A DNA stretch of 61,904 nucleotides, filler included, from Hausera hauseri (lineage: Eukaryota): NCBI GenBank assembly GCA_046269625.1. It is 12 parts of 12 records of this genome, joined end to end, with 100 filler letters (N's around TTAATTAATTAA, not from the genome) between each part and the next. Parts side by side here need not be neighbours in the genome. Positions count along the whole stretch, not along the records: positions 46,181 to 52,291 come from JBJURY010139094.1; 11 more parts are not named here. One strand, written 5' to 3'. This document shows, in pieces, positions 8,328 to 61,530 of this stretch; the first letter of the stretch is position 1, and each line of letters opens with the position of its first letter. The notes under the pieces are model-generated. The model was not told the origin of the DNA. It searched no databases and saw nothing but the letters and a program-made list of their open reading frames with translations. The translations under genes and the position numbers were made by a program.

Positions 8328-11045
8328 CAATTCGCTTGTAAAGTTTCTTCCTCAGTATGACAAGATTTGTTCGGATGGCCCGTATCTGCAAATGGTTTTC
8401 CAAATTAGAACTTTAGCCAAGGTTTCGGCCTTTTGTTCTAATAACGCCACAAGTTCGACGAAGTGAGTCAATCGGTATACACAGGTCAAAATATATTTGA
8501 TATTCTTGTGGGTCGTAGGTAATGGTCCTACAATATCCATAGACATTGCTTGCATTGGTCTATTGGGCACGTCGATAGACTTAACCTCTGCAACATAGTT
8601 TTTCACTTTTCTCTTCTTGATCGCACACACTTCACAAGCATTTACCCAATTTCTCACGTCAATGTAAATGCTCGACCAACAGTACTTATTTAATATCCTT
8701 TCCAATGTCTTTTTCCACGATATGTGTCCGGCTACGTATGAATCGTGTTTGGCCATGAGTACTTCCGCTCGTAATTCCTTCGGTATGACTACTAATTTTC
8801 ATCCTTTTCGTTTGTAGTATAACAAATTTTCGTGGTTCAAGTCTCCAGCGATGCAGTATTTGTGACAATATCGTCGTAAGTGTTTTCGTAGCTGATGACC
8901 CTTTGTTGTATCAATGTACTTGATAATTTGTTGTATAACCTTGTCTTTTCTCTGTTCGACGACAATCCTTAATGCCTTATCTAGTGTGAGAGTCCGTTGT
9001 CTTTCTACTAAATCTTTAAGGTGTGCTTTCCTCATTACCGTAACTGCGCTTGTTTTGGTTTTAAGTCTCGTTAATGCGTCGGCATCGACGTGTTTACCTC
9101 CGGGTTTGTATTGAAATTTAACATTGTAACGTGAAATTTCTTCTATGCATCTGTTTAGTCTACATCTTGGATTATTTGCCCTACCTTTCAAAGTCGTAAA
9201 TGCTTTATGATCAGTAACAATTATAATCTTTTGTCAATATACGTATACGTTAAAATGTCGCAGTGCTTTTTTTACTGCCAACGTTCCAACTCTGCTACCT
9301 AATAGTTCTTCGCAGTTTTCTTTAGAGAACGCCCTCCATATGTGATTGGGTGTTCTAACTCCTCGTCTCTTTGTTTCTAGCCAGTTTGTATCCGATACCT
9401 TCCTTACTGGCGTTTATTTTGATTATGAACGGTAGGTTAAAGTCGGAGTACCGTAGAACAGGCTCACTAGTTAGAATCTATTTCATTTTATCAAAAGCTT
9501 TTTGTTCTGCATCGGTCCATTTTTACTTAATCCCTTTTTGAGTAAGCGGAATAAAGGTGCGTTTATCTTTGCCTTATCTGGTACGTAGGTTCCATAATAT
9601 CCACATAGACCTAACCAGTGTCTTAATTCCTTCTGATTCTGAGGTGCATACAATCCGATATCTTACTTAATAATGATTTATTCGGCTTCGATCCTCCTTC
9701 TCCGACTATATGTCCAAGGTAAGATACAGCATTTCGAGCCCATTTGCATTTCTTTGGATTCAATTTTAATCAAGCTTGTTCCAGCCTCATGAGTGTACCT
9801 TCAATATTCTTTAAACGTTCGTCTTCCGTTTACAAGGCAATCATGACGTCATCTAAATAGGAGAACGCATGTTCCAGTCCCATTACCATCTTGTTTATTA
9901 TGAGAGTAAAGATAGCTGGTACATTAGTTATTCCAAAAGGCATGACATTGAATTCATATATACAGTCGTGTGCCTTAAATGCTGTTTTGTAACGATCTTC
10001 CTCTTCTATCTCTACCTGCCAATATCGAGAATATAAATCGAGCGTAGTAAACCATTTAGTTCCCAAAAGTCTGTCCAGGGCTTTCTTTACCAATGGTAGC
10101 GGAAAAGAATCCTTCATCATAAGTGTATTTAATGTTCGATAGTCGATACAAAATCGATGTTTAATGGTATTTTTCTTCTTAACCATGAGTATCTGTAAAT
10201 ACCAAGATCTGTAGTTTGGTCTAATTATGTCGGCCTTCAACATTCGTTCAACCTCATTAGTTATTTCTGGCCGGAACAAGTGTGGAGGAGGGTACCACTT
10301 GGGCATCTTTTGAACTTCCAAATCTATTTTGTCGTTGGAGCCAGGTTTTTTTTTAAGTGGAATAGTAAATCTTAAGGTTTTTGCTCGGCCAATATCCTCT
10401 TCATCTCTCGCGATAATCGAGCTGTAACGACAAAGTAAGTCGTAGAATCGGCAGTACGATTCCGATGAAAATTTAGTCTTAACGTGGGGCGGAAATTCGT
10501 CACCCTTATATGGTTTTTCTTCGACGGTGATTGATAATACTCTATACGTGTGTCCCAAAGTGGTATTGGCGTAAAATTTAATCGGGGTTGGTGCGTTATT
10601 GGCTATCTTCATTTGCACACGGCCCGTTGATACTTTTGTCAGAACATTTCTGAGCACGAGGTTTGAATCGAGTGATTCCTTTGGTTCAAAATATATTGGA
10701 TGATCGTCATACTGACGTATCTGAGCATATATTAGTATTTCTGTTCTGGGAGGTATGGTTTCATCTACTGCAATCCACACTTCTCCGAACTTTTTATCTT
10801 TGGTGGTTTTAACTCCTTTTATTGGGCCAAGTTCTATCAACTTACCTGCATTGAAATCGATTGCTATATTAGGTAGTTGTCTCAATATGTCACACCCTAA
10901 CACCACATCATCCGTTAATTGCTCAATTACTGAGAATTCATGACGAAAAGATTGTTCCATTATGTGAATTTCTGGATTCCATAGGAATTTACTCTTCGAG
11001 GATTGTCAAAAAGTCCCAATGCTTCCTGGATCTGTCGTAGGAGGT
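8328..11045 (-). pseudogene. pol: Gypsy pol: PR C-terminal half, dUTPase-like spacer, RT, RNase H, IN (frameshifted)
   Basis: RFCIDYRTLN, FTTLDL..YWQV, YEFNVMPFG, SYLDDV; TDHKAF..L and YKPGGKHVDADALTR; HD..AGH...CEVC zinc finger, MDIVGPLP integrase core. Confidence 0.95.
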
Positions 11046-11049: not shown

Positions 11050-13252
11050 CTTGCGCAATATCCCGTAGCGTTTTGTTTCTTCGTAGGGATCCTCTCTGTT
11101 CACTGGCTTTTGATAGACGTCTGTCTGACACAAGCTCATAGATTGTTTTTCGCAATCTTCATATATAGGTGCCGTTGGCGGCAATATTGGTAATGGTACT
11201 TTTATAACAGAGTAATTTTTTGTGCCTGTTTGGTCTGGAGATAATGTATCCTCCCTTAGGCTCGTCATCATCAGAATTATTTCTTCGTGTCTTACTGTCT
11301 ATGAATTTTTGCCTGTAATATAATATTTGTCTTTTGCGTTTCCGATCATAGTAGCCAAAATGCCGTTCCACATTTGTTTTCAATTTACTTTCTTCACAAG
11401 CCTTTAAGAATTTACCGAAAGGTGTAATGATAGCCGTTAAAATTTTGCACAAAAATCTTGTCAAGGTAAATATCTCGTATTTATTTATGATTGCTTTAAT
11501 TGTAGCTTTTACCAGTTGAATTAAGAAGCATATTGCTAGAAATCCTGACGCATCTTGTCCGAATATCAGGAATCGTCCCCACATTTTGTATAATATTTCC
11601 GTGGTTACCTTCTTGTAATAGCCAACACCAAGTAATGACTCCAATTTTGCCTGATAGCGCGAGGCCTCTAATATTGTATGCATCGCTCTGTTTAATTCAT
11701 GTGTGCACTGACGAGGAAAAGCAAGAAATTATCTGAACGCCTCTACTGCTTTTGGTCAGTAGATACCCTTCGCAGCTGTATCCTGAAACTTATCATCGGT
11801 TATTCTTTTTATTAAGTTTGTTCCTCTCAGTTTGGTAGGTGGTGCGATAATACCACCGTTCGGTAAACTTACCCAGTCAGTTTCGCTACGTCTAAACATC
11901 GGCTTTTCTAAGCTGGTTTTACATTCTCTTAAAATTGTCGGTTGAGTAGCATTAGCTAATAGTACTCTGGTAATTGGTGTTACTAGTTGCGGTGCGTCTT
12001 GATATATCACTGGAAGCTCTTGTATACACGTCTTCTCTTCCACATTAGTCGGTACGTCTTTCTTCTCGCACTCATACATCAATAAGACTTCTACAGGTAC
12101 TTGTCCAAAAACACCTTCCTTCATCGGAATTATTGGTAATACCAACTCCGGATTTGCATATATTATAGCTACCTTAGTTCTTATGATTTTCAAATCCAAT
12201 TTGCAGTCTTTTATTATCATCTTATGGTACAACTTGGCTATTCCACCTTGTCCTTTATAGTAGAAATAGTCGTCTATGTTCTTCAAATAGTTTTCAATCC
12301 GGATGTCCTGAGTTTTGAATTTGAACGTTCTGGTGTTTATTTCTGTTTCGGCTACGAAAAGTGCTTCATAGTTGGTGGCATAAATTATGACGTCGCATAT
12401 TGTGAGCATAGCTTTCTTTACACATTTTAATTTATGAGTATCAGAAATCAATATAGTGGGTGTAGACTGTTCAGCTACATTTTCTCTTGTTTTAGAGTTA
12501 GTTTCTGTGCGACTTAATTCTTTACTTTTTTAATTCTGATAAAGTTGTAATCGATCTTAGCTGGGGGTTCCCAATTTACTACGGAACTTCAAAACACGCA
12601 TGTGCCATCCTGAATGTGGCACTTGTGTTTCTCGGTGTAAAATTTAGTAACGCTATGGAACATCACTTTCTCTATGCGCATTTAAGTTTCGTAAAAGTTT
12701 ACTACCAAGACGTTTGACTCTAATCCTTTTTGGGTATCGTATTCTGTACCTTGACAATGTCCTGTGTGCATATCTAGTCTTCCTGCTGCTACTTTGTATA
12801 CTCTGATTATTTTCCCTTGCTACATTTCCAGTTCCATACCATCCAATTTTATTCTCCCCGTTTTTCTAGTTTGCTTACTGCTGACGTTCTAAATTCATCG
12901 GAATTAGTGGTGTTGCTTGCTTGATTATTGACGAGTATCCATGTACCAATCCACAATGGAAGATGCTTCGAAATCGGCGTAACATACATTCTACTCCGTC
13001 CAGCGTAACTAGTTCCCGTTGTTCGTATAGTATATAATTTTTCTCTTTTCTTTCTAATCTATGGGGCCTCGCATCTTCGCACATTTCCAAGTCCATTAAC
13101 GAATATTTTTGGCCAAGTTTAAATTTGTCACAATCATGTACCGCAACTGCGCCCATTTGCCTTACTAACATCATCATGGTCAAAAAATTGATTAGCCAAT
13201 TCGATTCATTTCCTCTGCAATTTCCAGTTATATTGTGTAGCAGATCTACCAC
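11050..13252 (-). pseudogene. env: Chuvirus-like (class III/gB-type) envelope fusion glycoprotein, fragmented
   Basis: Signal-like WLINFLTMMMLVRQMGA, then HDC..YSLMDLEMC, EC..R..FHCG, AG....GHC.G..Y, EVLL.YEC, C..ELPVIY, P.TRVL, P.F....W, GIY; TM region WGRFLIFG..SGFLAICFLIQLVK; basic tail. Confidence 0.85.
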
Positions 13253-13259
13253 TCTATTG

Positions 13260-13969
13260 TTATCGAAGAAGAATCCACTCTGATGTTCTTCCTTTTTTCG
13301 ATTAACTTAGACCAGTTCACTTCTAGGGGTAGCTTCCTGGCAGCCTTCCTTGCCAAGCTAGTAGCCTTGTTAAACTCATTTTCTCGATTCGGATTGGTTT
13401 TGATGACCAGATATAGTAACACTTTTCTCTACCATAATTTTCTCAATTATCATTTCATCGCTTAAAGTACTTTTGGTTGATTTACACCGGAGGTTTCTCA
13501 TGGCCTTGGCAGCGTTCGATATGGCCTTCTCCTTCTTGTCTAATATATCATCACCGAGGTTAGATTGGCTTACTATTCGTATCAAGTTTTTCATAAGTTC
13601 GTTCAGCTCCTCATTATCCGCATTAAAATTTGGTATGGACATCTGCCTCAATTCACTGATTAAGTATCCATTATAGTCGATCTCCTCCCGCATTTTCCGT
13701 GGTCTGCCGACAGGACGCTTTTGATTTGTTATAGCAGGTGCACTGCCATCGATCGGTACTAAATTTTTATCATATTGCTCATTATCTTCATCTGTCTGCA
13801 GGTACTTGAAATATACGTCTGCATCTCGGACCCCTATTATTTGTCCTACCTGTTGTTCGGCCTTAGCCTTCCTTATGGTCTCTTCTTTTGTTTCATCGAT
13901 ACTGGTGGTTACCACTAACCGGTTTATTTCACCTGGAATAATTCTGACTTCTATTAACAAACCGAACAC
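13260..13969 (-). CDS. Short gag-like ORF with an AT-hook
   Basis: KRPVGRPRK AT-hook; SIPNFNADNEELNELMKNL resembles the start of a Ty3/Gypsy capsid (IPxFxG-like); lies directly 5' of the glycoprotein signal sequence; frameshifted near 13400. Confidence 0.5.
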
Positions 13970-14135
13970 TTGCTTTTAACAATTCAGCCAGCTCATTAAC
14001 TCCACCCTAGCATTTGATTTTTCAGCTATGAAGAAGTAAATTCTAAACACTGGAAGTGTGTTGCCAACACCCAAAAATAAAAAAACCAGATCCACACACA
14101 CACAGAGTAAGTGGGACTAGACAATTTTCAGTGAA

Positions 14136-16217: not shown

Positions 16218-16310
16218 AAGATAATGTTTCTTGGATTGAGTATAATATTGCGAGAGATGATATTCCTTGTATCATCTTTATAGGATGTGGATTAAGTAGA
16301 GGGACTAGAG

Positions 16311-21440: not shown

Positions 21441-21680
21441 ACCCCCGGAAGGGTGGGGGTAATCGATAAATCGATTTTGCACATGTGCCAATCGATAGTG
21501 CACACGGAGCACTATCGATCTGCAGTGTGCTAGGCAACGGTGCCCCTAGGTACCGTTGCTAATGGCACTTTTGCACTTTTCACAAATCGATAATTGCACA
21601 GTGTAGTATTGATTGAAGCGATCAGGACAAAGTGATAATCGATAGAGCACATCGAGGTTCATCGATTGGTACATGTGCAA
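21441..21680. repeat. Nested-palindrome element (MITE-like)
   Basis: 20-bp inverted repeat 21477-21496 / 21661-21680 (1 mismatch); internal hairpins at 21491-21519 and 21534-21559; many ATCGAT sites. Confidence 0.7.
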
Positions 21681-23330: not shown

Positions 23331-23340
23331 CTCTCGTGAT

Positions 23341-37004: not shown

Positions 37005-37388
37005 TTATTGTGGGTTTTGTAACATGTCTACTATCTGTTTTGTCGACTGACATAAGTATTCTGGCACTTTCGTTGTCATGAAATTTACCAATGTTTTTCC
37101 AAATACAATTTTCATCGGTAAGCCTGATGAATGAGTCATGTTTCTGATAACGGATAACAACAGACTGAGAAGTTTGCATAGATGAGCTGACTTATCGATT
37201 GATGCAGATTTGGGGATAACGTAAAGACGTTCTTCGCCGTTCATGTGTGAGTAAGTCATCTTACTGACATCATTTGTCTGACAAACGTAATCATCTGTAT
37301 TCAACAGTAAATTGAACTTTGCCGATGACTCACCTAAATAACAACAATTATTGGTGGCAAACAACGACGTACTGCAACTATCGGTCAT
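37005..37388 (-). CDS. Hypothetical protein fragment
   Basis: 127-aa ORF with no recognisable motif. Confidence 0.25.
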   Translation of the reverse strand: MTDSCSTSLFATNNCCYLGESSAKFNLLLNTDDYVCQTNDVSKMTYSHMNGEERLYVIPKSASIDKSAHLCKLLSLLLSVIRNMTHSSGLPMKIVFGKTLVNFMTTKVPEYLCQSTKQIVDMLQNPQ

Positions 37389-37549
37389 CGTAATGACTTA
37401 CTCTCGTTTCGTCGACATAAATTCAGAAAACCCGAACGTTATATACTCTACGAATATTCTATAATGCTACTAATTTGCTGATTGTATTGTACGACTTTTC
37501 GTTTGTAATTTCGTAAGTTATTTATTTACATAGGGAAATTGTGAAATTT

Positions 37550-40500
37550 TCGAGGCGGAAGATCGGGCCCGACTATGGATCCGACGCGGCGATAACGGAT
37601 ATCCGGCCGCGTCCAACCAAAATTGGCCAAAGGGTACCGGCCGCCGTGTGCACCACATCACCCCCCGTGGCAAGGTTAAAACAATAAAAGAGCAAAATAG
37701 ACAGAAACAAAAGCGCCAAACGGACAAATGTCTGTATCAATTAGTCTTCGTGTGAACAAGACGTTAGGTGCCCTCTACTGATTTTTCCCTGCTATACATG
37801 CTAAATGTGACTGCGTGTTTTGTCTGTATGCGATATGTTTGCTTGCAGAGTTTGAAGTTGGAGAAAAAATTGGCAGATTTTGTTCTGGGTGATGTGTCGT
37901 GCAAAGACAAGTCAGAAAGAAAGGAAGAAAGTGAAAGCAAAAAAGAGATTGTTGAAGACGGACAGTTGAAAGTGTCCCAGAGAATTTTAAAAGACAAGCG
38001 ATTGGCAAAAAGCGTAGTGGAGGATGAAGGAGAGGCGGAAATTGGATTAGGAATTGGAATTGTATTAAGCGAATGAGTAGTAGAAAATGAAACAGAGGTA
38101 GTGGTAGAGGTAGGAAAAGAGATAGGAATGGAAGTAGGTGTAGAAAATGATAAAGCAGAACTAGGAGCAGAAGGAGAAGGTGGAAAAGGTGTAGCAACAG
38201 ATAGAGGAACAGCAGGAAGCGTAGGAGTGAGAAAAGAGGTTAACGTGTCGATTGGTGAAGTGTCATCGACAAAAAAGTCGGGATTTAAGTTGGTAATATG
38301 CACTGTAAGGTCTCTGCCGTCTTTAGAAATAATAGCGTTGTGCAAATGCAGCTGTACCAGTTTATAAAGCCCCAGTACCGCGGCTGAAAACTGCACTCCG
38401 TTTGATTCTTTAGCCATACAAATTTTGCCGAGTGCAAGTATTCGGGTAAATATGTTTTGTCTTTATGATGTAACATGCAGAATGAATCTCTGCTGACCGT
38501 AACGAAGTGATTTTGCGCCGTCCGTATCGTTTCATCTGTAGAAGTGTCATCTAGGGCAGTTAGTCCAAATAATGATCGTACAGGAGCTCCGAATAAGGCT
38601 CCATAGGTGAGCATCCCGTAGAAGTAGACGGAATGTTCTGCCTGCCAAGCAGAACAAACGGAATAAGAGTCGTCCAACTAGTGTTGGACTCTGCAAGAAT
38701 TCTTAGTGATGTTTTCAATGTTCGGTGGAAACGTTATAAAAAGCCATTCGATTGGGGATGATAAGGCATAGTATGTATGTGATGGATCTCCAATCGGTTA
38801 ACAAGAGATTTTAGCAGGTTGAATTCAAACTGTGGACCCTGGTCCGTGATGATGAAACGAGGTATTTTAAACCTGCTACTCCATGGACGAATAAAAACGT
38901 CAGCTATAGTATCGGTGTTTGTGCTCCGCAGAGAGATGGCTTCTGGCCATCGCGGGGAACGGTCCACTATGGTGAGAATGAATTGATGACCGTTGTCTGT
39001 AGAAAGAGGGCCGACGATGTCTATATGCACGGATTCGAAACGCGATGTGCAGGGAAAGTGGAACAGTGGTGGTTTTAAATGCTTAATTGTTTTGTATTTT
39101 TGTCAAGCCACACACTCCTTAACCCATGCTTGCACATCGGAACGCATTGACGGCCAAACGTCTTGTCGGTAGAATAAACGAAGTGGCTTTAGCACCGGGG
39201 TGGTGTAGCGAATGCACACTGTTAAATGCCTGCCTTTGCAACGATGGTGCAAGAATTATTACGGAATGACCTGGTTCGGAAGTGTCTAAATCCACGCCGC
39301 CAACAATTGTGTAAAACTTGAAAGAATTAAGCATGTCTTGAGGTGGCTGGTTCTGTTGAAGTTGCGCTTGAGTAAAGATTGGTGAAAAATTAATCGAACT
39401 GACCTAGATAAAAAATCAGCAACCAAATTATTAACCCCATTGATGTTTTATGTCGAAGTTAAATGTCGACAAATATGATATCTGTAGTTCTTGGCGTGTG
39501 GAAGGATGTTTCATAGCCATGATGTTTAGCAAGAGCTTGTGATCGGTCTGCATGGTAAAATGGCGAGCGAAAAGTAGGTGGGAGAAATGCTTTAAAGCAA
39601 GAACGATGGCCATTAATTCTCGATCGAACGTAGAATATCCAGTTTCAGGGGAAATTAGCTTACGAGAGAAAAATTCTAGCGGTTGATTTTCTCCTTTGTG
39701 GATTTGGTAAAGCACAGCACCTACCGCAGTGGTTGAAGCGTCTGTGGTAAGGATAGGTTCCGCGTCAGGCTTGGGCAAAGCGAGAATGTCGACGGTCTTA
39801 ATTCCTTCAAGTAGCTTATCAAACTTATTAACCAATGCAGGTGTCCACTGAATTGGCTGATGTTTCTTGCTGCCACTTAAGTGTGCAAATGGTGCTGTCA
39901 GTTCAGAACAATATAGCACATATTTATGTACAAAGTGTAACGTACCAAGGAAGCTGCACATTTCAGTAATCGTACGTGGTGACTGGATATTCTTAAGGGC
40001 TTCAACTCGGTCTGGTTTGGGAAAGTGGCCGTCTGGTGAAATAACGTGGCCCAAAAAGTTGATGCGCCATTTAAAAAAATGACATTTGTCGAAATTTACT
40101 TGGAGATTATGGTGGTTAAGGCGTCGGAATATTGCGCGGAGGTGTTCCTCGTGTTGTTTGGCTGAAGACGAAACGATCAGAATATCATCAATGTAAGGGT
40201 GCGGAAACGAAAAATCTGAGAGAATTAAATCAATATGTCGCTAAAAATTTTGTGCGGCATTTCGCAAACCGAATGGCATAAACAGGTACTCATAGAGACC
40301 AAAAGGAGTAGTGACAGCAGTCTTTTCTGTGCCTTAAGGTGCCACCGGTATTTGGTGATATGCTCTTGCCAAATCAATGGCCGAATAAATTGCGGTTGAA
40401 TTAAGGCGATGCGAGATATCTTTGATGAGTGGCAGAGGGTACGCATCCATAATAGTTAAGTTGTTCAACTGTCGGTAATCACCACATGGTCTAAAAGTTC

Positions 40501-41715
40501 AGTCTTTTTTGTACAACATGTAAATGTGACGACCAAGATTTGGAACGATATACGATGCCGGAGCGTTCTAGTTCAAGAGATTCGGCTTCTACGGCCTGCA
40601 TACAACGAAGTGATAGTGGTCGTACCTTTTGGCATATTGGTCGTTGATGCTGTGTAACTGTGGAGTAAAGTACTGTTTGCAGGAGTAAACATACGATCTT
40701 TTTTAAGTACGCGTGGGCATGATGTGTTAATGAATTGCTGTAAAGTTGTAGGCAACTGTGAGAGATTCGGTGATGATGATGAAACAACTTGAGTAGTAGC
40801 GGATGCAATTTGTAAATTGTTTGTTGATGTAAAATCAATTGGTATTTGGTGTAAGATGGTCGAATTGAAAATGGTGTTGGATGAAGTGATTTCGCCGAGT
40901 GAATTAACGTTGGTGACAGTACCACAATTAACGACATGAAAAACTTCGATTGAATATCAATATTATTATTTAAGAATTTACGAAATGAATTATTGTTATG
41001 GAAATTCGAATTAGTTTTTGGTTTCCCCAAAATTAATTTCGGCGTCTCGATCGACTGCGCGGTAGTCGAGATGCTATTTATGTGCTTACTGACGCTGCCA
41101 GTGGTACCACTCCTCAGACATTGTTGACTGCAGTCAACCAATAAATTATAATGCGATAGAAAATCGGATCCTAGAATTGCCGTCTAGACGTTAGCAACTG
41201 TGAACGACCAGTGGAAAGGTGAAGGAAATTTTGGTAAGATAAAAGATAGTTTATCCATGCCATAAATGTGCAGCGGTTGACCTGAAGCGGTGTATAAGGG
41301 CTTAATTCTGAATGGAGAATTTTGTACAGGGAAAGTTTGTGGTAATAAAAAAATCGCTGCACCTGTATCAATGAGGAAATCGACGGATTGCGTTGTAGGA
41401 GCGATGATTGCAGCCTTTAGGATAAAGACAGCAAAAGAGGCGTGTCGGCATTCAGAAGGTGAAGCAGTACCTTTGCCAGAGTTTGCCGTGACTTCTGGCG
41501 GCAAATTTAGTTTTTTTGAAAAGGTGTACTAGGACGACTATTAGAAGAAAAGGTAACACGTCCGTCGTTCGTATCTGTTTTGAAAGTGCAGCCTGGAATA
41601 CATTTACGGATTTGATTTTTAAACTTTGCGTGGTAAATACAAACAACGCTGTCCGTAAAAAAACTTTTATTGTAAAATTTGCACCCTAGGCAGCATTTTT
41701 TGGCACTTTTTTTAA
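37550..41715 (-). mobile_element. CsRn1-like Gypsy copy C (gag 3' end plus pol)
   Basis: Close paralogue of copy A: CHCC boxes, AAAAAAC-TAA, FLIDTGAA, RT, TTDAS-type RNase H, HIDIVGPL, PYHPQSNG; PPT and LTR start at 37657. Confidence 0.93.
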
Positions 41716-42319
41716 ATCAATTCATGAATTATCAATGTCCGAAAGAGAATTATCAGAATTTATAGAAGAAACGGATAAAGATCAAAATCTGGTATTAGAC
41801 AAGAATCAAGTTCTAANNNNNNNNNNNNNNNNNNNNNNNNNNNNNNNNNNNNNNNNNNNNTTAATTAATTAANNNNNNNNNNNNNNNNNNNNNNNNNNNN
41901 NNNNNNNNNNNNNNNNCAAATTTGGACAGAGCTGTCGCAGCACAAGATTAAATATTGTTATTTAATAAGAATTCTATCGGTGCAAATTTTGTTTGTGTAA
42001 ATTTTATAACTTTAAAACAGTAATAAAACTGTATACTATTGTATGCAACTGCACACACACTCACAAATAAGCAAAACTATATACATAGATGAAACTGTTG
42101 TCATAATGTAAAATTTTGTTGAACAAGTTGTTTAATATACCGCAAAGTAAAATTCGTCATTTGTTAATGTAACATATTTAATAAACCGCAAAGTGGAACA
42201 TATGTCGTACTTTGCGGTTTATTAAATAGAATATATAAGGCAGTGTCTGTCATTATTTTGTCATTATTGCAACGCTTTATAAAGAATTCCCAAGAAAATT
42301 CAAAAAATTAATTATTGAA

Positions 42320-46180: not shown

Positions 46181-48301
46181 AATTCAAGATGGGTCAAAGA
46201 TATTCTCTAATGGATCTGGAAGCGTGTGAAGATGCCAGACCACACAAATTAGAAACGGGAGAAAGGAATTACTTTTTATATCATAAACAAGAGCTGATAT
46301 CATTAGATGGAATGGAATGTATGTTACGACGGTCTCGCAGTATTTTTCGTTGTGGATTAATACACGGACATTCTTTTACAATCAAACCAACAACTTCCCC
46401 AATTTCCATGAACTTGGAACGACAGCATTGTAAACAGGCTAGAGAGACTGGAAGAGTACAATGGGACAATATGGAATTAAAAATGCAAGTTGGTAAAATT
46501 ATCAGGTAATATAGAATGATAGCCGGAAAATTAGATATGCATACGGGACACTGTAGTGGAGCTGAATATGATACCGGAAAAGGAATAGAACCACATATAG
46601 TAGTAGTGGATTTCTATAAATCAGAGATAAGAGCACAAAAAGTAATGTTTCATAGCATCACCAAACTATACACGGAAAATTAGAAATGCCATGTACAAGA
46701 TGGGACCTGTGCTTTTAGAAGCTCGGTTATAATATGGGAATCGCCCTCAGGAAGAAGCTGTAATTTTATTAAAATAAAAGAAATCAAATTTAATGAGACC
46801 ACCGGAAAAAGATACGCGGATAAACTAGATACCAATTCAAGGACACGTCAGGATGTATTAGAACATCCTACGCCCACCATATTAATCTCGGATCAACATG
46901 GACTAAAGTTTATTAAGAAGGAAATGATATCACGTTGTGATGTAGTGATGTTTGCTACTAACTACGAAGCATTCTTCGTAGCAAAAACTGAGACAAATGC
47001 GAGAACTTACCAGTTAGAAACTTAAGATATCAGAATTGAGGACTACCTGAAGAATAGAGACGATTATTTCTATTCTAAAGGACAAACTGGGATAACTGAG
47101 TTGTACCACAAGATGATAAAGAATGACTGTAAATTGGATAACGAAATCATGAGGACAAAACTGGCTCTTATATACGCCAACCCAGAACTGGCATCCCCAA
47201 TAATTCCTATAAGAGAAAAAATTTTCGGTCGAGTTACAGGCGAAGTATTACTAACTTATGAATGTGAAAAGAGAGATGTACCCATCAATGTAGAAGAAAA
47301 ACGTTGCATCCAGGAACTTCCGGTTATCTATCAAAACGTTCCCAGATTAGCTACACCATTGACAAGAGTATTATTGGATAACGCAACCCAACCTACTATT
47401 CTTAAAGATTGTAAAGCGGATTTAGGAGAACCCATGTTTAGACGTAGTGAGACAGACTGGGTCAATTTACCGAATGGAAGTATTACTACCACTCCAAATA
47501 CATTAACGGGAACAAATCTGGAGAAAGGATTTACAGATGATAAATTTCAGGACACTTCATCGAAAGGCATATATGGACCCAAAGAGGTCGAAGCATTTAG
47601 ACAGTTTCTCGCTTTTCCGCGACAGCGAACGCACGAATTAAATCGAGCCATGGCCTCTGTAGTAGACGATACCCGATATCAAGCTAAGTGGGAATCTCTC
47701 CTTGGCGCTAATCACTACCAAACAGTGACTTCAGAAATATTGTACAAAATCTGGGGAAGATTTTTAATTTTTGGCATCGGGATTCCTAGCAATCTACTTC
47801 TTAATACAATTAATTAAAGCTGTAATCCAGGTTGTTATAAACGGGTATGAAATATTTACATTGATAGGATTCTCCTGGAAGATTTTAACTGTAATTATCA
47901 AACCTTTTGGAAAAATGCTTAAAACATACAAAGAAAATCGATGGAAAAATGATGTAGAACGTCATGTCGGATATTACAATCGCAAACAAAGGGGAAGACT
48001 CTCGATTCTTAACAAACGCAAAAATAAAAAGACAATAATGAGGAAAGACGACACAGATGATGATGAGCCTAAGGGAGGAGAAGGAAATGCCAGAATAAAG
48101 TTACACAGAACATATGTATTAATACCCATCATGCCATCAACTGCGCCGATTTACGAGGACTGCGATCAAAAGTTAGTCATATCTTACAGATCTGATATCT
48201 ACCAAAAACCCATGGATTATGAAGACCTTTATGGAAAAACAGAACAATATAGAGTATTACGGAAAATGAACGTTATCAACAAAGAACCAACAGAAAATTG
48301 A
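46181..48301 (+). pseudogene. env: Chuvirus-like (class III/gB-type) fusion glycoprotein
   Basis: YSLMDLEAC, ECMLRRSRSIFRCG..HGH, GHCSGAEY, CHVQDGTC, DCKLD, GEVLLTYEC, CIQELPVIY, SKGIYGPKEVEAFRQFLAFP, TM WGRFLIF..SGFLAIYFLIQLIK; a few stops and frameshifts. Confidence 0.88.
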
Positions 48302-48554
48302 CCAGGGAATATTATACTCGAAAAGGATATTTCGCCACATAGAATCGAAATCAACGATCTGGGAAAACTCGAGGTTATGCACAATCCCAGGTCCCTTACC
48401 TCAAGAACTGCTCATCGACAACCGCGTCACGGAAATAACAAATAACGATTTGTAACCGAATGGAGAATTAAGACAATTAAGGCAGGATATCATTTCATCG
48501 CCATAAATACCGATAAATGGACATATAGTCTCCACCATAAAACGGTCCAAGATA

Positions 48555-51500
48555 ATGTCGAATTGCCATGGAACAGTAGCAGAAGAAAGACACATCGAAG
48601 ATTGGAAAGTGTATGCGCTAATCGACACAGGATCAGAAAAATCGTTTATAAAATATGAATCGATACCAACCACATTGAGAGACCAACTATGTCCACCCGC
48701 ATCATCGGACCCAGGCTGCATAGGAGCATTTGGACAGGTATTGAAGCCGAAATTTAAGTGGACGCGTACAGTTTATATGATGGGCAAAGCACTTCCACAT
48801 GAATTTGCGGTAATGGACCAATTAACAGATAATGTAGTACTGAATTGTGACGTATTAAAACAGATACCAAGCATGGCAATTGATGTGCATAATGGAAAAC
48901 TACTCGAGCTCGGAACAATTAAGGAAACAAAAACAATAAAGGAAAGGAAATCGAGCGAAGCGTGGATTCCGGTAGATGAAGACATTCCATTCAGAACCGA
49001 AATGATAATCTTTACAGAGATTCGTTAAGTCGAGGATCTGCCAGTATATTTTGAACCTCAAGAGAACGTCGATCCAAATTTCATGTTTAGCAATATACTA
49101 TGCAGAGTAGCAACGGGAGGATTTACGGTTAGATTAGTGTACAACGCACCAACTCCCGTGAGACTGCACGCTAATACTACTTTATATCACATTTGTAGAG
49201 TATCGGCAGTAAAAATAGAGGAAAAACCATACAAGTGCGCTGAATTTCAATCTCACATCGAAACCAAATTTCCTCCTGAAGCGTATTGCAAGTTCTACGA
49301 ATTACTGTGTAAATACCGTTCAATAATCGTACAAAATGAGGAAGACATAGGTAGAGCGAAAGCCCTGAGATTAATAATCCCATTAAGAAAGAAACCCCGC
49401 TCGAATGACGAAATCGATCTAGAAGAAGAGAAAATGCCCAAATGGTATCCACCTCTCCATTCATTGAGATCAGAAATAACTAAGGAGGTAGAGCGAATGC
49501 TAAAGGCCGATATAATTCAACCAAGCGACCTATCATGGTACTCACCTATACTTATGGTTAAAAAGAAAGGAACTACAAAACATCGATTTTGTATAGACTA
49601 TTTGGCATTAAACACGCTTATGATGAAAGAATCGTTTCCCCTACCATCGGTAAAGGAAGCATCGGACAGACTATCAGGAGCAAAATGGTTTACCACTCTC
49701 TACTTACAATCAGGATACTGGCAAGTGGAAATCGAAGAAGAAGATCGATATAAGATAGTGTTTAAAACGTACGATGGTGTATACGAATTTAATGTTTATA
49801 TTAATGTTAATATTTAGACGATGTAATGATATCACCAGAAACAGAGGAAGAACCTTTAAAGATATAGAAGACACACTCATGCGACTGGAACAAACAGGGT
49901 TGAAACTAAATCCGAAGAAATGCAAATGGACACAAAACGCAGTATCGTACCTTGGACACGTAGATGGAGAAGGAGGATCAAAACCGGATAAATCCCTGCT
50001 AAATAAAATATCCGATCATATGGAACCGCAGAATTAAAAAGAGTTAAGACACTGGTTAGGCCTACATGGGTATTATGCCACTTACATACCAGACAGTTCG
50101 AAAATTAGCGCACAATTATATCGTCTTCTCAAAAAGGGGACTAATTGGAGATGGACTGAAGTTGAACAAAAGGCGTTCGACGAAATGAAGAAGATTTTGA
50201 CAAGCGAACCAGTTCTAAGATATCCTGATTTTAATCTACCATTCATCACTAAAACAGATGCATGTAAAGAAGGTATATGATATGAATTAGCTCAAAAACG
50301 AGAAGATGAAGTATTGGAACACCCAATCGCCTATGGAGGACGCTCGTTAAAGAAAGCGGGAAAGAATTATTCGGTTACCAAATTAGAAACGTTAGCCGTA
50401 AAGGAAGCACAACGACACTTTTATGTCTATGTCTACGGACAGAAGATTATAATAGTGACCGACCACAAAGCAGTTACGACATTAAAGGGACGAGTTAATA
50501 ACCCAACGTGTAGACTAAACCGTTGGATCGAGGAAATCTCACGATATAACATTGAATTCCAATATAAACCAGGTAGTAAACATGTCGACACCGACGCACT
50601 GTCAAGTTAAGGACAAAAACAAGTGGAATCACCACAGCGAGCAAAACGCAACTTGAACAGTTAATTGAACGTCAAAGGATCCTAACCTTGGATAAAACGG
50701 TCAGGATCAACGCACAGCAAGATAAAGATAAGGTTATTCAGCAAATTGTTGAGTTTGCACAGAATGGCAAAATGCCTAAAGGACGACAGCTTAAAAAGCA
50801 TGTAAAAAAACACGGACATAAATATTGCGCATGGAACCAAGATAATATTTTATATTACGAACGAAAAGGAAGAAGACTAATAGTTATTCCAAAAGGATTA
50901 GGAACCGAAGTATTAGTATATTTAGCTGGACATATGTCTTTGAACAAGACACTGGAAAGAATATTAAATAAATACTATTGGCCAAGCATTTATATCGATG
51001 TAAAGAATTGGGTAGGTGTTTGCGAAGTTTGCGCGACAAAGCAAAAAAAAACGAAAGGCTAAGGAGCAGAATTAAAACCCATAAATGTACCGGATAGGCC
51101 CATGCAAGCTATGTCTATGGATATGGTGGGACCTTTGCCTAAAACTCATAAAAATAATATATATATTCTAACATGCGTAGATCGGTTAACGCATTTTGTT
51201 GAACTGGTGGCACTATTAGATCAAAAGGCAGAAACTTTAGCTGACGCGGTGGTAAGGAAAATCATCTGCAGATACGGACTACCAGAACAAATCTTAACGG
51301 ATAGAGGAAGAAATTTCACAAGCGAATTATTGGAAAAAATTACTAAAATATTCGAAATCGAACGTTAACCACTACCACATACCATTTCAAATGTAATGGA
51401 ATGGTCGAGCAAATGAACGCAACAGTCATTCGAATACTATCAACAGTAGTGGCAAAAGACCAAAAGGATTGGGACTAATTCCTAGAAAGGACGCAGTTCG

Positions 51501-51945
51501 CAATCAATACGACCCCACATCCAACAACAGGATTTACACCGTTCTTTATGATGTATGGACAAGAGGCAATCTTACCCACAGATCTAGGTATGACACCGTA
51601 CGTAAAGAACCTCGAGGATCTAGAGCAAAACTTTGCCGAAGTCTTACAGACAAGATTGCAAAAGTATTGGGAAGTTGCAAAAACATTAGTACAGGAATAC
51701 CAGGAAAAATTTAAAAAACAATATGATAAAAAGACTAAGCCGCATGATCTGGAAAAGGGAAATTTGGTTTATATACATTTCCCGGTCGAGACGAAAGGTA
51801 CATCCTTGAAATTAATACGTACGGGAAGAGTACCATATGAAATCATTCGAACAATGCCAACCACGGTCTATATNNNNNNNNNNTCAATTCAAAGAGTAGT
51901 TAAAACAGATATAAGACCAACTAAAAACTACAATCTAAGACAGCA
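48555..51945 (+). pseudogene. pol: Gypsy pol (PR, dUTPase-like spacer, RT, RNase H, IN)
   Basis: ALIDTGSEKSFI, RFCIDY, SGYWQV, YLDDV (out of frame near 49810), KTDAC, PIAYGGRSL, TDHKA, AGH..CEVC, MDMVGPLP, LTDRGRNF, NGMVE, YNLR. Confidence 0.95.
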
Positions 51946-52291
51946 AGGAACAAAGACCTCATCAATTGTTACAAGACTGGTATCTTTTGCACAGATAATA
52001 GTAGCCTTATCATTGATTGCCATCCTAACGCACAAGTCTAACGCCCAATGGTGGGTCGACGAAACTTCATTGATCGACATATATGGAATCAGGAAAATCG
52101 GATTAAAACCTTCACAACCGAAGAAAGAAACCTTTGAACAGAAGTCACAACAGACAGACGAAAAATTCTTACGAGCAATAAAATTAGATTATTTTTCGCA
52201 AGAAGCCCCATGTGTCGGGTTTAGAATACCAGGACCATATGAGGAGCAAATCCATATATTATTTCACGACCTGATAAGTCAAGCCGAGTCC
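51946..52291 (+). CDS. In-frame post-integrase extension starting with a signal-peptide-like segment (truncated)
   Basis: After YNLR: ...RLVSFAQIIVALSLIAILTHKSNA|QWW..., open to the contig end. Confidence 0.55.
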
Positions 52292-54654: not shown

Positions 54655-56366
54655 TTCGGTAGCTTCGTCTAAATCGACGAGAATGTGGGATTGTCAGGTT
54701 ATTGTGGCATGACGCGGCGCGATCTTCCTTCGGATTATCGGTTGACCCGATTTCGTTGCCTGCGAATTGATTCTTTGATTCCTGGTGGCGTAGTTTGGCC
54801 CAACGTTTTCGTGGCTTCTGTCATCTTGAACATACTTTTCAATAATACTGTCTTTTCTTGAACTGTGGATTCAAACAAGTGGATCTAAATTTACAGATTT
54901 CAATTATTAATTTTTATTATTATCACAAGTGCTGATCACTTCAGCACTCGTAATCCCGGTTTTTAATTTTCCTATTTCATAATTTTGTGCAGCCGGATTC
55001 TTGTTTGTTTGGGATGAATCCGTGATATATTTTATTTTGTCCAAGTCTGTGATGTTAAGTTGTGATTTTAAATTTTAAGAACTTTTTAGCATTGAGAATT
55101 TAAATTTTATTTGAGATTTTGAATTTTAGTATTGAGAAATTATTAACTGATTTTGTTTGACTTAAATAAAGTTTTATAAGTTTCAATATGTTTTTCGGTG
55201 AGGTGAAACCTCACACGGTGGTATTTCGTCGCCGAGTATTTTGTGTTTTGTATCGCCCGCAACGAGACTGGAACAACTCTCCAGCAGTTGTTTTGTGGGT
55301 TTGATCATTAGGAACGCAATACCCTTGGAACGATTTTTGAATTTTGCTTTGTGATATTTGAATTCAGGGTCTTTCCAATTGTTTGGTTAGGAATAAATAG
55401 TAGTGGGAAAGGAAATAGAACTCTCGCTGGACCGCCAAAGAGCTGGTGAGAAAGTACAACAAGAATTGTTCAGACAATCGTCGGTATTTAGCATTTTATT
55501 AGGTGGTTGATCGAATGATAAATTTTTATTATCACAATCGGATTCCCGAGAACGTTTGTGAGATTTATGAAAAACTAAATTTTCTTTCGGTTTGTCTGGA
55601 TAATTTGTTTGCATATCCATATGTAAAATAAGCGGTTCTGCTGCATCGAGCGGAGGCTGATTTGGGCTCAAAGAAGACAGTTACGGTTGCGTTGTGAACT
55701 GGGCGGTATTTGGTATACAACACTGAGAAATTTGCTAAAGCTGATGATTTGATTGGGGTGATTTCGATGGCTGAGATGGAAGTTGGTAAAAAAAAACTTG
55801 TTGACTTGGTTGATTATTGTCACTGCAAAGTTGAGAGACCGTCCATTTACTTAACCTTAACGCCGTAAGAATATCCCGGTTAAGTGTCGGATCTCTTATG
55901 CGTTAAAGAAAATCTTGGGCTTTGATATATGCATTATCAGAATCGAAAATTTCCGAAATACCACTTAGTGTTTTTAGGAAATTGACAGGAAGTAGAGAAA
56001 AAAATGATAGAGCCTTCTCCATTGAACTCATGTAAAAGCTGGCTGACCATCTGGAATGTATTAATATCCATGGTAGTGCACTGCCGTGGTGGAGTAAAAA
56101 CGGCCTGCATGACAGATGAGGATTGGTTCCAGAAACGACGGTTCCTGGTATCCCACTTCTGATACCAATGTGAAAATCTGTCATTTTGTCTCGATTATGC
56201 CTGAATAATCTGAACACTTTGATTGCGATCCAGCAACACTAAAACTACAAATAGAATTCTATTTCACTTAAAATTTTACAATAGAAGTGAATAGGACTAT
56301 TTAAACAACACCTTTTAAAAAAGGTACATATATAGATTTATATATTGTTATTTTTTTAGTAGGGCA

Positions 56367-57497
56367 ATGTGGGCACCACATATCCCTTCAGCCAAACACT
56401 CTTCCCTTCAGTGCACAGAATACTTTATTGATCATGAAAAGTCCAGCAAAACATGGCTTAACTTCCACAAACTTTGGCTACAGTCTAACAGTATTACCGA
56501 TCCCTCAGTCAAAGCTCATAGCTTACTTTGCCTCTTACCCAACACAGTAAAGACTTCTCTTCACGATATTTTAGACATCTTTCAACAATCCGACCCGTAC
56601 ACCCTTCTCTATAATGAAGTTTTAAAACTCACGGAACCGTCTATGAATTCCATAATCCATGGATTCGTCAATGATAACGCTATGGGTACACAAAAACCAT
56701 CCGATTTTCTCAGATCCTCTCTCACTCAACTGCAAACACTCGGTGTTACAAAACAAAATAATTACGATCTCTTATGACGTTACTTTCTAAACGCATTACC
56801 GATTCAAATCATGGCCCTGCTTACCGTCGTCGAGGAATCGACGGCGCTAGATAAGTTAGCCGAGCTTGCAGACGAAAAGTACGAGATTTTATATTTAAAC
56901 ACACAGCCTATCGTTTCTGCGGCGCTTACAGTAAACGACAACACATTAGAATATCAAATTCAACGGTTGCGAGCCGAAAACGCGGCCCTACATAATATAA
57001 TAAACAATATCAGTTATAGATTAAATGAAATCTCTATGGCTCAACAAAGGAGTTCCGCCTCCGATCGCGCACGCGCTGTACCCAGAGGTCGGTCACATTC
57101 TCCTGCGCGATCGTTGATCTGTTTTTACCATGACAGGTTCACCCATAAAGCGCAAAAATGTCATCTCGGGTGCCGCTTTTACACCCAAAAGTACTACATT
57201 GACAACGCTATTTGCAACTACCACGCAAAATTTAAGAATGAAGCACATAAGTGTCTTCCTGGTTGTACCTTTAGAAACGGCACACAGCATACGAACGTCG
57301 GACGTACTATCTCGTCTTCTAACAGCCGACTAAGTTCACCACTGCCAAAAACTAATGCCGCTGCCAGAGCTTACGGCGAGTCCTGGCGAAGGCCATTCGC
57401 CAGTTTCTACCAGCCGAAAACTATCTTTCGCCGTATTTACATTAAAAGCAATAAATACGTTACCAACATCTCGCCACATAGAATTCCTTATCGATTC
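56367..57497 (+). mobile_element. gag: CsRn1-like Gypsy copy D (gag and start of protease)
   Basis: ITDPSVKAH..DPY..MGTQKPSDFLR capsid; LAELADE; CFYHDRF..AQKCHLGC and CNYHAKF..AHKCLPGC; frameshift site at 57346-57387; FLID at the contig end. Confidence 0.9.
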
Positions 57498-58149: not shown

Positions 58150-61100
58150 CATACCCACATATATGGGCCTGTTGAATTGCAAGGATGTTCTCAGTATATG
58201 GATGCTGACAAAGTTCTCGACATAGTTGGTGCTGATGTGGAAGTTAGGCTTGGCAATGGGCTTCTTTGCTCGCTTCCACTCACATACCAGTTCGATGTTG
58301 ATCATGTTGGGGATATTCTACATGGTCTAACCAAAAGCGCTGTTGTTGTACAGCTTGAACTGGTCCTTCTCAAAGTCGTTCTTGGCATTGGTCCGCAGCT
58401 TCGTATTAAGATCTATGTAGGACTGCAGCCAGTTGGACTGGCTGAACTGCAGGGCCCTATGGATCTTAGTAATGCGCAGTCCATTCCTGACAGCTTGCTG
58501 GGGATTTATATAGTGGTCTACACACCTCTACCAACTATTCAGATGGCAGGGCAGATTTCTATACTTTCCATGGAACGGAGGCTTGCTGTCAGGGAGCAAA
58601 GGCAGGTGTTGATGCCTTGTGTGGATAGAAGCAAAATATTCCATATCCATCTCTAGTATATATCCCATAACTCCACTGGGATCCAGGTCAGTATAGGGAT
58701 GTTTTCAGGATGCTCGACCCACTTGAAGCCACCATATGGCAATGGGGTGCTCATTGCCCATCCATTCAAGCTGTTGGCATCCAGGTATGATATATATGAG
58801 GGTTCCTTGGATGGATCATACTGGGCCATATACTTGTTGGCCTCGCTACATGGTGATTGGCCTGGCATATTCTACCTCTAATGTCTCTCTCGATCATAAG
58901 GATCATGTCGTAATCCTTTATAATCTGCAGCCTGACACTTGTATATCTCAGCATAGCTGCCCAACTCATCCCGGAGACATAAAATAATGAGCTGGATCCA
59001 GTGTATGGCAGTTTATCGTAACATCTCTGAAACTCTCAAAGACATCCGTCAGCAGCAGCACGTCAGTCTTGAGGTACATGTTGCTGTATTCCCATAATGT
59101 TCGGCATTGGAATGCCTCCTAGACGTTATGAGCATGCTGGTAGGCCATATCATTGATATCACAATCAGAGAGGATAATGTAAAAGTCCTTCTTGGCCGGC
59201 AATGAGGTTTCATTCAGTGTTTCCCATGGGGTTATATAGTCATAAGGAAACACGCCTTTCCTCTTGACGAGGTCAAATGCAGCGGGAAAAAATCGCTTCG
59301 TCTCCTTGAGTTCTTCAGCAGGGATGTTTTTCACTAAGTTGTCAAGTGAAGATGACATGAATCGGAAGCTGTATACGAAGCGAAGTAGGACTTTGCCGAC
59401 ATGTTTGGTAAAGGTGACGTATTTTTCTTCACTATTTGGAATGCCATCAATGTTCCCTCAATGTTTCCCATTTCCCGAACAATCAAGTGGGAATCATATC
59501 CACTGAGGTTGTGGAACACTACAGGCACATATGTACATGTTTTGCAATGCAGATTGAAGTTGTTGCATACTGCACCTCGATATGTGCCTGTAAAATGGCA
59601 ATGATCCCTGACCTTATAATTATCCTTAGTGAAGGACTTGTTGCACAAGTAACATTATGTTGCCTTGCGCCATTCTGCTTCCTGCATCTTCGACATGCTC
59701 ATGTTATCCTTATGCTGCTGCAACATATCTCCAATCGTATGAACCACGTCTTCAAGTCGTTTCATGAAATGAGCTGCTGCGTCTGGACCCCTGAATAGAT
59801 ATGTTTCATTGTCCAGTCCTTTGGCATACATGCAATATGATGAAAGTTCATGATATTGATATGCCGTGGTGCTGCTATGTTGTGCATTAGGACTGCAACT
59901 CTGTACTGGGCGCAGAATAGCCTTAAAGTAGCAATAGATGACTGTTGGGAACTTGATTTTCTTCTCGAACTCCTTGAATTCGATGTAGTCCTCCTTTGGA
60001 AATTATGGCCTGATGCGATAATTGTTGTTGCAGTACATCTTGTGTCTTCAAGCTTCAAAACGGCTACATCGCCGCTACAATGAGACAAGTATATTTCTAT
60101 TTGTCCAAAATGTTTCGTAATTTGCAATCTTACTAGATGCTCAGTCTTTGATCCAAAGATAATGTATCTTTTCTCCATCGTCAAGTAGGAGCAGATCCCT
60201 ATATCTTCCAATTCAGCATCGCATGTCTGCAGGAGATAGAGTTTGTCCTTATCATCGAATCCAAATGTGTTGATGGACATGTTGACTTTTCCAACTTTTT
60301 TCACTTCATCTATGGATGGAGGGAACTTAATACATTGGAAGTCGTAGTTGTGCTAAATGTTCTGATATAGTGAAACACGGTAAGCATGATTTTGATCCGT
60401 CACTAGTTTTGATAGAATGGCATGCATAAAACATTGTCGCTATTATGGATATTGATGCATCCACTTTTATTAACGATCCATACAGGGAGCTGAATATATG
60501 AACTGCCCCGCATGGGGGAGTACTTGTACACATACACAAGCAATCTCTTGGTGACTGCCAGTGTCCATCCGCTCGTATCTTGGCTCGCCCCGGCTTCATG
60601 AATCAGCTTCGCGTGCGCATCATGCAGCCATTCTACTATATTGGTGTTTTCCAATATGGACCTATTTTTTGCCTTGAAGGCCGTATTGGATTTGTCGCCA
60701 TCAACATTGATGCATGTGGCCTCCAGTTTCCTGTTCACCTTAATGGCTTTGAGTTCTGTCATGCCCTGAAGAATTCCCTCTGTCTCTTCCTTTGTGTATA
60801 AGAGGATCTCTTGGAGTATTGTTTGACCAGTTGCATCAATAACATATCTGCAGACTTTTCTCTTTAATGCTGCCGCATCTACTGGCCGCTCTCTTTGGCC
60901 TTCTGGTGTAGCATCTGCTGCTGCTGCTGTGCGTTTTAGTCCTGCATCGGACTTTGCTGACGCAGCGGGCTGTACTGCTACATATGGCTGTGTTGCCAAA
61001 GTAGGTTGTGCTACAACGACTGGCTGTGCTGCTGAAGCAGGCTTATGCTGCTCATTAAAGATGAACTTCTTTGACTTTGACTTAAAGTCTGACAAATGGG

Positions 61101-61530
61101 CAATATGATCTTTGTAAAACTGTATGTATTCTCCATAACATACAGCCTCACATCCTGGGCAAATATAATAGAAGATCCTGTCGAATTTGTACCCATAGTA
61201 GCTCCTCATAGTATTATGACAGTTCTGAGGGTTGTGTATTACACATGTGCAATACACGTATGAACTGCATCTTTGATTTTGCTTAGACATGGAAGTCATT
61301 ATTGGCATAGTGGTATTGAATATTTGTTTTTTCGACTTGGTCAAGGAAATCAGGTGTTGTTTATGGGCATTGTAAATGTAGTCATAATTGGTGTGGCACA
61401 CTACCTCACATGTAGGGCATATATAATAATCAGCCCTGTTGTATAGATGACTTAAGTACTTCTGCATAATATCGTGGCAATTTTTAGGCTCGTGGATTTC
61501 AGCCAAGCATTGTTTGTATAGACTGTACAT
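58150..61530 (-). pseudogene. polB: Second Polinton/adintovirus protein-primed PolB (3'-truncated)
   Basis: [94 protein letters not shown]; ends at PIYVGM. Confidence 0.93.

What the first reader, a model, noticed from the sequence alone, without database searches (positions are those of the whole stretch)
46181..52291. Gypsy retroelement with a chuvirus-like fusion glycoprotein placed BEFORE pol (gag-like > env > pol), present as two diverged copies
Seen: in both this contig and 8328-14000 (minus), a Cys-rich glycoprotein with a C-terminal TM anchor runs almost directly into protease-RT-RNaseH-integrase. Only about 250 bp separate the end of the tail ORF (48301) from the protease ORF (48555), with no LTR, PBS, capsid or zinc knuckle between them. 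The two copies are clearly diverged (roughly two-thirds amino-acid identity by eye, many synonymous changes), so the order was propagated and is not a one-off nesting or misassembly. Established: env genes of retroviruses, errantiviruses and env-bearing BEL/Pao elements lie 3' of pol; the Cys/Gly motifs here resemble chuvirus/gB-like class III fusogens. Inference: a retroelement lineage with a rearranged, possibly single-polyprotein layout (basic core protein > internal signal > luminal fusogen > TM > cytosolic Pol released by its own protease), topologically like flavivirus polyproteins.
Basis: partly seen in the sequence, partly recalled or inferred. Interest (0 to 1): 0.88.

Follow-up and report, generated by a model that had tools for sequence, protein, structure and literature searches.

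The report
Burro-like retrotransposon, envelope before polymerase
These are two decayed copies of a virus-like jumping gene whose membrane-fusion gene sits in front of its copying enzymes, a layout already published for flatworm and nematode elements; the less familiar part is a likely second surface protein behind the integrase, which might help the particle attach to cells.

Summary
Both contigs carry a chuvirus/herpes-gB-type fusogen (Pfam PF24664; fold matches gB) followed by Ty3/gypsy protease-RT-RNase H-integrase, with no LTR or gag between. The copies are about 68% identical in env, under strong past purifying selection, and both are now broken. Corrections: copy B lacks the protease active site; its upstream ORF is not shown to be a capsid. 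What I did not find in print: 8 of 8 full-length relatives continue past integrase into a second signal, ectodomain (FN3/Ig-like in the one folded, weak) and TM anchor, 7 of 8 with a foamy-virus-like Y-x-L-R motif before it; copy A shows that motif, the signal and 85 residues before its contig ends. Verdict: a compact variant of a known kind, with one testable lead.

The parts
46183..47775 (+). Copy A env ectodomain, gB/chuvirus-type class III fusogen; contig starts just inside the mature protein, 3 in-frame stops
   Evidence: PF24664 E 2e-43; AF2 pLDDT 87.7; Foldseek gB E 1e-13, chuvirus-like G E 1e-32
47768..48301 (+). Copy A env transmembrane anchor and basic cytosolic tail (frame change from the ectodomain near 47775)
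   Evidence: PF24664 positions 551-611, E 7e-8; ORF
48302..48554 (+). Tail-to-protease linker; no LTR-like repeat, reads on in one frame with two stops
48507..49028 (+). Copy A aspartic protease (DTG near 48624) and start of the PR-RT linker domain shared with relatives
   Evidence: RVP E 0.009; tblastn; linker alignment
49029..50607 (+). Copy A reverse transcriptase and RNase H, broken by stops and frame changes
   Evidence: RVT_1 E 3e-5, RT_RNaseH E 2e-21
50580..51873 (+). Copy A integrase (H2C2 finger, core, C-terminal part); scaffold gap N10 at 51874-51883
   Evidence: Integrase_H2C2 E 2e-12, rve E 2e-13; tblastn
51929..51940 (+). Y-x-L-R motif at the integrase tail, like the foamy virus Gag chromatin-binding arginine anchor
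   Evidence: same motif in 7 of 8 full-length relatives; foamy peptide in PMC12125541
51977..52291 (+). Second signal-like hydrophobic segment (KD 2.63) and about 85 open codons of a likely secreted ectodomain, cut by the contig end
   Evidence: no significant sequence match to the relatives' cassettes
13376..13975 (-). Copy B upstream ORF (199 aa) in the gag position; AT-hook-like motif; possibly a strongly diverged capsid, not shown
   Evidence: AT_hook E 0.09; capsid profile 24 of 2000 shuffles as high, hhalign 23 of 150, global 49 of 400
11159..13306 (-). Copy B internal signal, env ectodomain, TM anchor and tail, in several broken pieces
   Evidence: PF24664 on 3 pieces; tblastn
8328..11005 (-). 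Copy B pol: protease lacking its N-terminal active site, RT, RNase H, integrase cut by the contig end
14104..14248 (.). 29-nt tandem repeats in the non-coding 5' part of contig B (possible LTR or leader; not shown)
   Evidence: family D15; no second copy of this region in the window

Best explanation
These are two decayed copies of a Ty3/gypsy retroelement with a gB/chuvirus-type envelope gene in front of pol, likely a compact relative of the planarian Burro-type elements that would have made one membrane-threaded polyprotein. Shown: domain order, fold, past selection, many related copies, and single-ORF relatives. Inferred mechanism: the N-terminal gag part stays in the cytosol; an internal signal sends env into the ER lumen; the env TM anchor returns the chain to the cytosol, where protease releases PR, RT-RNase H and integrase; a second internal signal after integrase exports another type I membrane protein. 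Pol is thus a cytosolic loop tied to membrane at both ends, and gag, env, pol and the second surface protein are made 1:1 from one RNA. The integrase would end in a Y-x-L-R nucleosome anchor. The two copies here are dead; their breaks are private decay.
For: Order and families. Class III fold. Selection on env between copies pS 0.82 vs pN 0.17; pol dN/dS 0.04-0.11. Breaks lie at different places in A and B. Best phmmer hits are polyproteins at 28-33% identity: 11 of 18 scanned have env then protease in one ORF, 4 of 18 go on to integrase. Three metagenome loci are single ORFs of 2693-3703 aa, a fourth has one stop and is cut, with capsid-like, zf-CCHC, ubiquitin-like and Bcl-2-like parts before env, the domain set given for Burro. 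Env tree places A among these polyprotein envs, apart from a real L-G-N virus G (SH 98). Schmidtea GAG-ENV-POL env rows in the eLife supplement show the same motifs and cysteine pattern by eye. 20,101 contigs of run X1 and 1,798 of X2 lie on copy A over all 30 bins, mostly under 95% identical. Post-integrase signal + TM in 8 of 8 full-length relatives.
Against: No intact copy of this family was seen, so a single ORF is inferred from relatives at only about 30% identity. No capsid, CCHC knuckle, ubiquitin-like or Bcl-2 part could be shown upstream in B; gag plus linker is only about 270 codons there against 540-1200 residues in relatives. On a 178-column RT tree A+B are sisters (100) but their tie to the env-first relatives is unresolved. 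No LTR or PBS was found in A, B or L002-L005. One hit (P0027) has RT/RNase H before env. Copy A's post-integrase piece has no significant match to the relatives' cassettes. The host is unknown.
Confidence: 0.8

Rival explanations
1. Same order, but this family expresses env and pol as separate ORFs (programmed frameshift, readthrough or splicing) rather than as one polyprotein.
For: Copy A changes frame between tail and protease, and B changes frame between its upstream ORF and the env signal; PMC13524379 speaks of three ORFs.
Against: All relatives that reach protease carry it in frame with env; the other breaks are private to one copy; contigs of runs X1 and X2 differ from copy A by small indels near some of its frame breaks (table 4).
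Confidence: 0.1
2. A capsid-less derivative: the ORF upstream of env is only the AT-hook linker seen in relatives, and the element was packaged in trans or in membrane vesicles.
For: No capsid or CCHC hit in B's 1.7 kb upstream of env; AT-hook motifs lie in the gag-env linker of 6 relatives; P0002 and P0152 ORFs also start 130-190 residues before the signal.
Against: B's ORF aligns in register over the full capsid length by eye and scores 24 of 2000 shuffles; the tests are insensitive (the gag-position ORF of another gypsy family in the window also failed); P0002/P0152 starts may be gene-calling artefacts and their DNA was not seen.
Confidence: 0.2
3. Chance nesting or mis-assembly joined a solo env to an unrelated gypsy pol.
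For: Short contigs from a repeat-rich assembly; no listed read contig spans the whole element.
Against: Same order in two copies with saturated synonymous sites, no LTR between, and in-frame env-pol in at least 11 relatives and three loci.
Confidence: 0.02

Closest known systems
Burro / GYPSM1 giant gypsy elements of planarians (PMC6431247, section read in full; Grohme 2018 not held)
   Same: Env homologous to mononegavirus fusion glycoproteins in frame between gag and pol; extra domain between PR and RT; thousands of copies; decayed fragments reported in Dugesia japonica. My relatives also show the ubiquitin-like and Bcl-2-like parts (weak Pfam hits).
   Different: Copy B is compact: no CCHC, ubiquitin-like or Bcl-2 part detected upstream of env; no BIR or ankyrin seen. 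That paper mentions no second membrane protein (0 hits for fibronectin or signal peptide). It likens the env to gypsy F-type; the fold here is gB-type.
GAG-ENV-POL HSV/gB-type errantiviruses of Nematoda, Bryozoa, Platyhelminthes (PMC13524379)
   Same: Ty3/gypsy pol, gB-type env before pol, multicopy. Schmidtea C1a env rows match copy A's motifs and cysteines by eye.
   Different: The published elements are intact and mostly LTR-bounded; these copies are broken and LTRs were not seen. The paper's main text has no word on FN3, Bcl-2, ubiquitin or a single ORF.
Nematode non-canonical ERVs (Sacco et al. 2022, J Gen Virol; not held, seen only as cited in PMC13524379)
   Same: Env and pol flipped; a continuous gag-env-pro-pol ORF is my recollection, from no call.
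   Different: Not compared directly.
Anakin (BEL/Pao with chuvirus glycoprotein, PMC7642597, passages)
   Same: Same glycoprotein family.
   Different: BEL/Pao pol; here all 94 RT hits shown are gypsy-type by their Pfam sets and names.
Chuvirus / Jingchuvirales glycoprotein G
   Same: PF24664; best viral fold matches, TM-score up to 0.73; L001, an L-G-N virus, 22%.
   Different: Only 15-22% identical; sits in a retroelement, and clusters with retroelement envs.

Membership tests
Ty3/gypsy (Metaviridae) | Pol order PR-RT-RH-IN with gypsy-type RT | tested here: met
   (no GyDB references in the tree)
Ty3/gypsy (Metaviridae) | LTRs, PBS, target-site duplication | not testable with these tools
   both contigs end inside the element or hold one end only; no repeat found
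GAG-ENV-POL gB-type errantiviruses | HSV/gB-type env with signal, cysteine-rich ectodomain, TM | tested here: met
GAG-ENV-POL gB-type errantiviruses | env upstream of pol | tested here: met
   both copies
GAG-ENV-POL gB-type errantiviruses | recognisable gag upstream of env | tested here: inconclusive
Burro | single in-frame gag-env-pol ORF | tested here: inconclusive
   copies broken; met in relatives
Burro | Gag with CCHC knuckles, ubiquitin-like and BCL2-like parts before env | tested here: not met
   none detected in B, where only about 270 codons precede env; present in relatives L003, L004
Burro | dUTPase-like domain between PR and RT | tested here: inconclusive
   a conserved linker domain is shared with L002/L003 but no Pfam or PDB hit
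Burro | giant size (over 30 kb), BIR and ankyrin domains | not testable with these tools
   contigs are 6 kb
Anakin (BEL/Pao) | BEL/Pao-type pol | tested here: not met
Troyka | no envelope gene | tested here: not met
   PMC12440569 passage; env present here

The most novel reading that the evidence does not exclude
Env-first gypsy elements encode a two-glycoprotein entry system in one polyprotein: the gB-type fusogen before pol and a separate FN3/Ig-like type I membrane protein after integrase that acts as the receptor-binding partner gB otherwise lacks (the role gD and gH/gL play in herpesviruses), with integrase ending in a foamy-virus-like nucleosome anchor. Copy A's family is a stripped-down version with a minimal, knuckle-less gag. 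This would supply the entry mechanism that PMC13524379 calls unknown.
Probability: 0.3. Interest if true: 0.72.

Novelty: new variant of a known kind. Interest (0 to 1): 0.45.

Why it matters
The headline layout is known, so it is not a discovery by itself. The useful part is the conserved second membrane cassette after integrase. How gB-carrying retroelements enter cells without the other herpesvirus entry proteins is stated as unknown (PMC13524379); a co-translated surface protein is a concrete candidate and can be checked at once on the published Schmidtea, bryozoan and nematode loci. The family also seems very abundant in its host.

Tried and rejected
No whole genome is held for this window, so copy number, LTRs and host could not be read. 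Word-index search with the env piece found nothing among longer proteins (weak evidence). Viral-contig scans gave one L-G-N virus and nothing for A's own env piece. No RNA holder was listed; this says nothing on expression. Troyka considered from a search listing and dropped. My guess that B's upstream ORF is ubiquitin-like failed; the ESM Atlas gave no usable hit for it. Capsid tests were not significant and also missed the gag-position ORF of another gypsy family. The post-integrase ectodomains are too diverged to align across relatives: best cross hit P0002 vs P0152 E 4e-4, copy A none. The FN3 call rests on a poor single-sequence model (pLDDT 41), Foldseek E about 0.01 with no match at E 0.001, VIA Z 7.2 (a common arrangement can score so) and Atlas 0.84 (lead only). 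RT tree did not place A+B (quick method, 105 of 216 candidates kept). dUTPase not confirmed. Earlier scan findings: none. Literature searches that found no description of the second cassette: and in-paper finds 95, 122, 124; Repbase, Sacco 2022, Grohme 2018, figures and the authors' GitHub files were not seen and may describe it. The DNA around proteins P0002-P0161 was not seen, so LTRs and upstream gag there stay open.
Full report
Setting. The window is 12 contigs of 4-7 kb joined by artificial spacers; no genome is held for it. Copy A fills contig 46181-52291 (+), copy B contig 8328-14805 (-). The host is not known.

Observation. Pfam on 17 ORF pieces gives, in both copies, Monjiviricetes_fusion (PF24664) and then RT, RNase H and integrase, with a weak protease hit in A. 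In A the 250 nt between tail ORF and protease have no match elsewhere in the window and no long purine tract, and read on in one frame with two stops. B is about 400 nt shorter here and has lost the protease active-site motif. Codon-wise comparison: env 68% aa identity over 510 codons, pS 0.82 (saturated, dS not computable), pN 0.17; dN/dS 0.11 (PR-RT), 0.04 (RT-RH), 0.08 (IN), 0.24 (TM and tail); many bootstrap rounds were lost to saturation, so these are rough. Env was kept under selection with pol while the copies diverged. Breaks lie at different places in the two copies, as expected for later decay.

Fold. A profile of 96 env relatives hits only herpesvirus gB among solved sequences (38 rows, best E 6e-5). 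The AlphaFold model of A's ectodomain (pLDDT 87.7, pTM 0.70) matches gB in PDB (E 1e-13, TM about 0.43) and chuvirus-like glycoproteins in BFVD (E 1e-32, TM up to 0.73). The class III reading is confirmed.

Relatives. phmmer over 1.84 billion representatives gave 512 hits; the best are long proteins at 28-33% identity. I scanned 18 of the 150 listed, chosen for rank or length: 11 have env followed by protease in one ORF, 4 of these reach integrase, 6 show env without pol, and 1 (P0027) has RT/RNase H before env. A metagenome scan gave 4 loci: L002, L003 and L005 are single ORFs of 3426, 3703 and 2693 aa, and L004 has one stop and is cut inside env. Before env they carry zf-CCHC and weak capsid, ubiquitin and Bcl-2 hits. 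None shows an LTR. L002 and L003 come from one assembly, and several proteins are close kin, so these are not all independent. In a FastTree env tree (85 of 96 rows kept; 11 short fragments dropped) copy A lies inside a 10-row group that holds all 7 labelled retroelement envs (SH 98), apart from the L-G-N virus L001. In a quick RT tree (105 of 216 candidates, 178 columns) A and B are sisters (100) but unplaced. Laying two public runs on 46181-51873 put 20,101 (X1) and 1,798 (X2) contigs on all 30 bins, most under 95% identical: a large, diverged family with env and pol alike. X1 may be the source sample, and no listed piece spans the element.

Prior art. [quoted passage not shown] Chary and Hayashi (PMC13524379; abstract, Results parts 1-3 of 5, Discussion part 1 and section 11, Methods section 14, searched rows of two supplements) report that gB-type errantiviruses of Nematoda, Bryozoa and Platyhelminthes are arranged GAG-ENV-POL, citing Sacco 2022 (not held; known only from that citation and recall). 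Six Schmidtea env rows in their supplement share motifs and cysteine spacing with my top hits and copy A; this was compared by eye only, and hints at, but does not show, a flatworm-like host. Dezordi 2020 (passages) and 2023 (abstract and Results) cover chuvirus glycoproteins in BEL/Pao and near gypsy fragments. Troyka (part 1 of 5 and passages) has no env. So the order and the polyprotein are known.

Gag position. B's 199-aa upstream ORF gives only AT_hook (E 0.09); AT-hook motifs also lie before env in 6 relatives. Profiles from relatives find no ubiquitin-like or Bcl-2-like part and the translation shows no CCHC knuckle. A capsid profile from 9 relatives scores it above all but 24 of 2000 shuffles, but hhalign (23 of 150) and a global score (49 of 400) are not significant, and the gag-position ORF of another gypsy family also failed. 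A diverged capsid is possible, not shown.

What is less familiar. Of 9 relatives with env, RT and integrase, 8 extend past integrase, and all 8 have two or more hydrophobic segments there, read as signal and TM anchor; 7 of the 8 have Y-x-L-R about 40-85 residues after the GPY motif, matching the foamy virus Gag nucleosome-binding peptide (PMC12125541, passages; the likeness is a motif only). In L002 and L003 the ectodomain is two repeats of about 100 residues; a low-confidence model, its fold searches and the ESM Atlas all point weakly to FN3/Ig-like sandwiches. Copy A has the motif at 51929, a strong hydrophobic segment at 51977-52027 and an open frame to the contig end, but no significant match to those repeats, and it lies beyond a 10-N gap. 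I found no description of this cassette (searches; finds 95, 122, 124), but Repbase, Sacco 2022, Grohme 2018 and all figures were out of reach.

Mechanism (inferred). One RNA, one polyprotein: cytosolic gag; internal signal; luminal gB-type env; TM; cytosolic PR-RT-RH-IN released by the protease; second signal; second surface protein. Env would fuse membranes. The second protein could bind a receptor, which would answer the entry question raised in PMC13524379, but it could as well be an immune decoy or cargo, like the Bcl-2 and ubiquitin-like parts; nothing here tests function.

Verdict. Real feature; headline layout already known; a compact, decayed variant of the Burro / GAG-ENV-POL kind with one testable extra. 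Interest 0.45; novel case probability 0.3, interest 0.72 if true.

Noticed in passing
L002 2-10279; P0152: Some relatives carry a further signal-ectodomain-TM cassette in the middle of the polyprotein, between proteases; in L002 it is of the same repeat type as the one after integrase.
   Followed up: partly
P0008, P0152, P0002, L002, L003: Two to five tandem aspartic-protease motifs per polyprotein, some after integrase; copy A shows only one.
   Followed up: no
L002 10617-12104; L003 12085-13470: Downstream RNase T/DEDD exonuclease ORF, like the DEDDy ORF3 of rotifer elements (PMC5408684, passages).
   Followed up: partly
P0003 (HBK71150.1): A 2627-aa env-first retroelement polyprotein is deposited as a Flavobacteriaceae MAG protein; probably animal DNA in the bin (inference).
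   Followed up: no
window 14906-21687, 21788-28188, 36996-41816 (minus); 56319-57497 (plus): Three more decayed gypsy copies of another family, without env, and a gag-like ORF with a weak DUF7041 hit.
   Followed up: partly
window 35425-36012 and 59762-61530 (minus): ORFs that by recall resemble Polinton/adintovirus-associated proteins; no Pfam support.
   Followed up: no
window 337-407 (minus): tRNA-Cys(GCA) gene.
   Followed up: no
L001 1-11270: Complete-looking L-G-N negative-strand RNA virus genome among IMG/VR contigs, G 22% to these envs.
   Followed up: no
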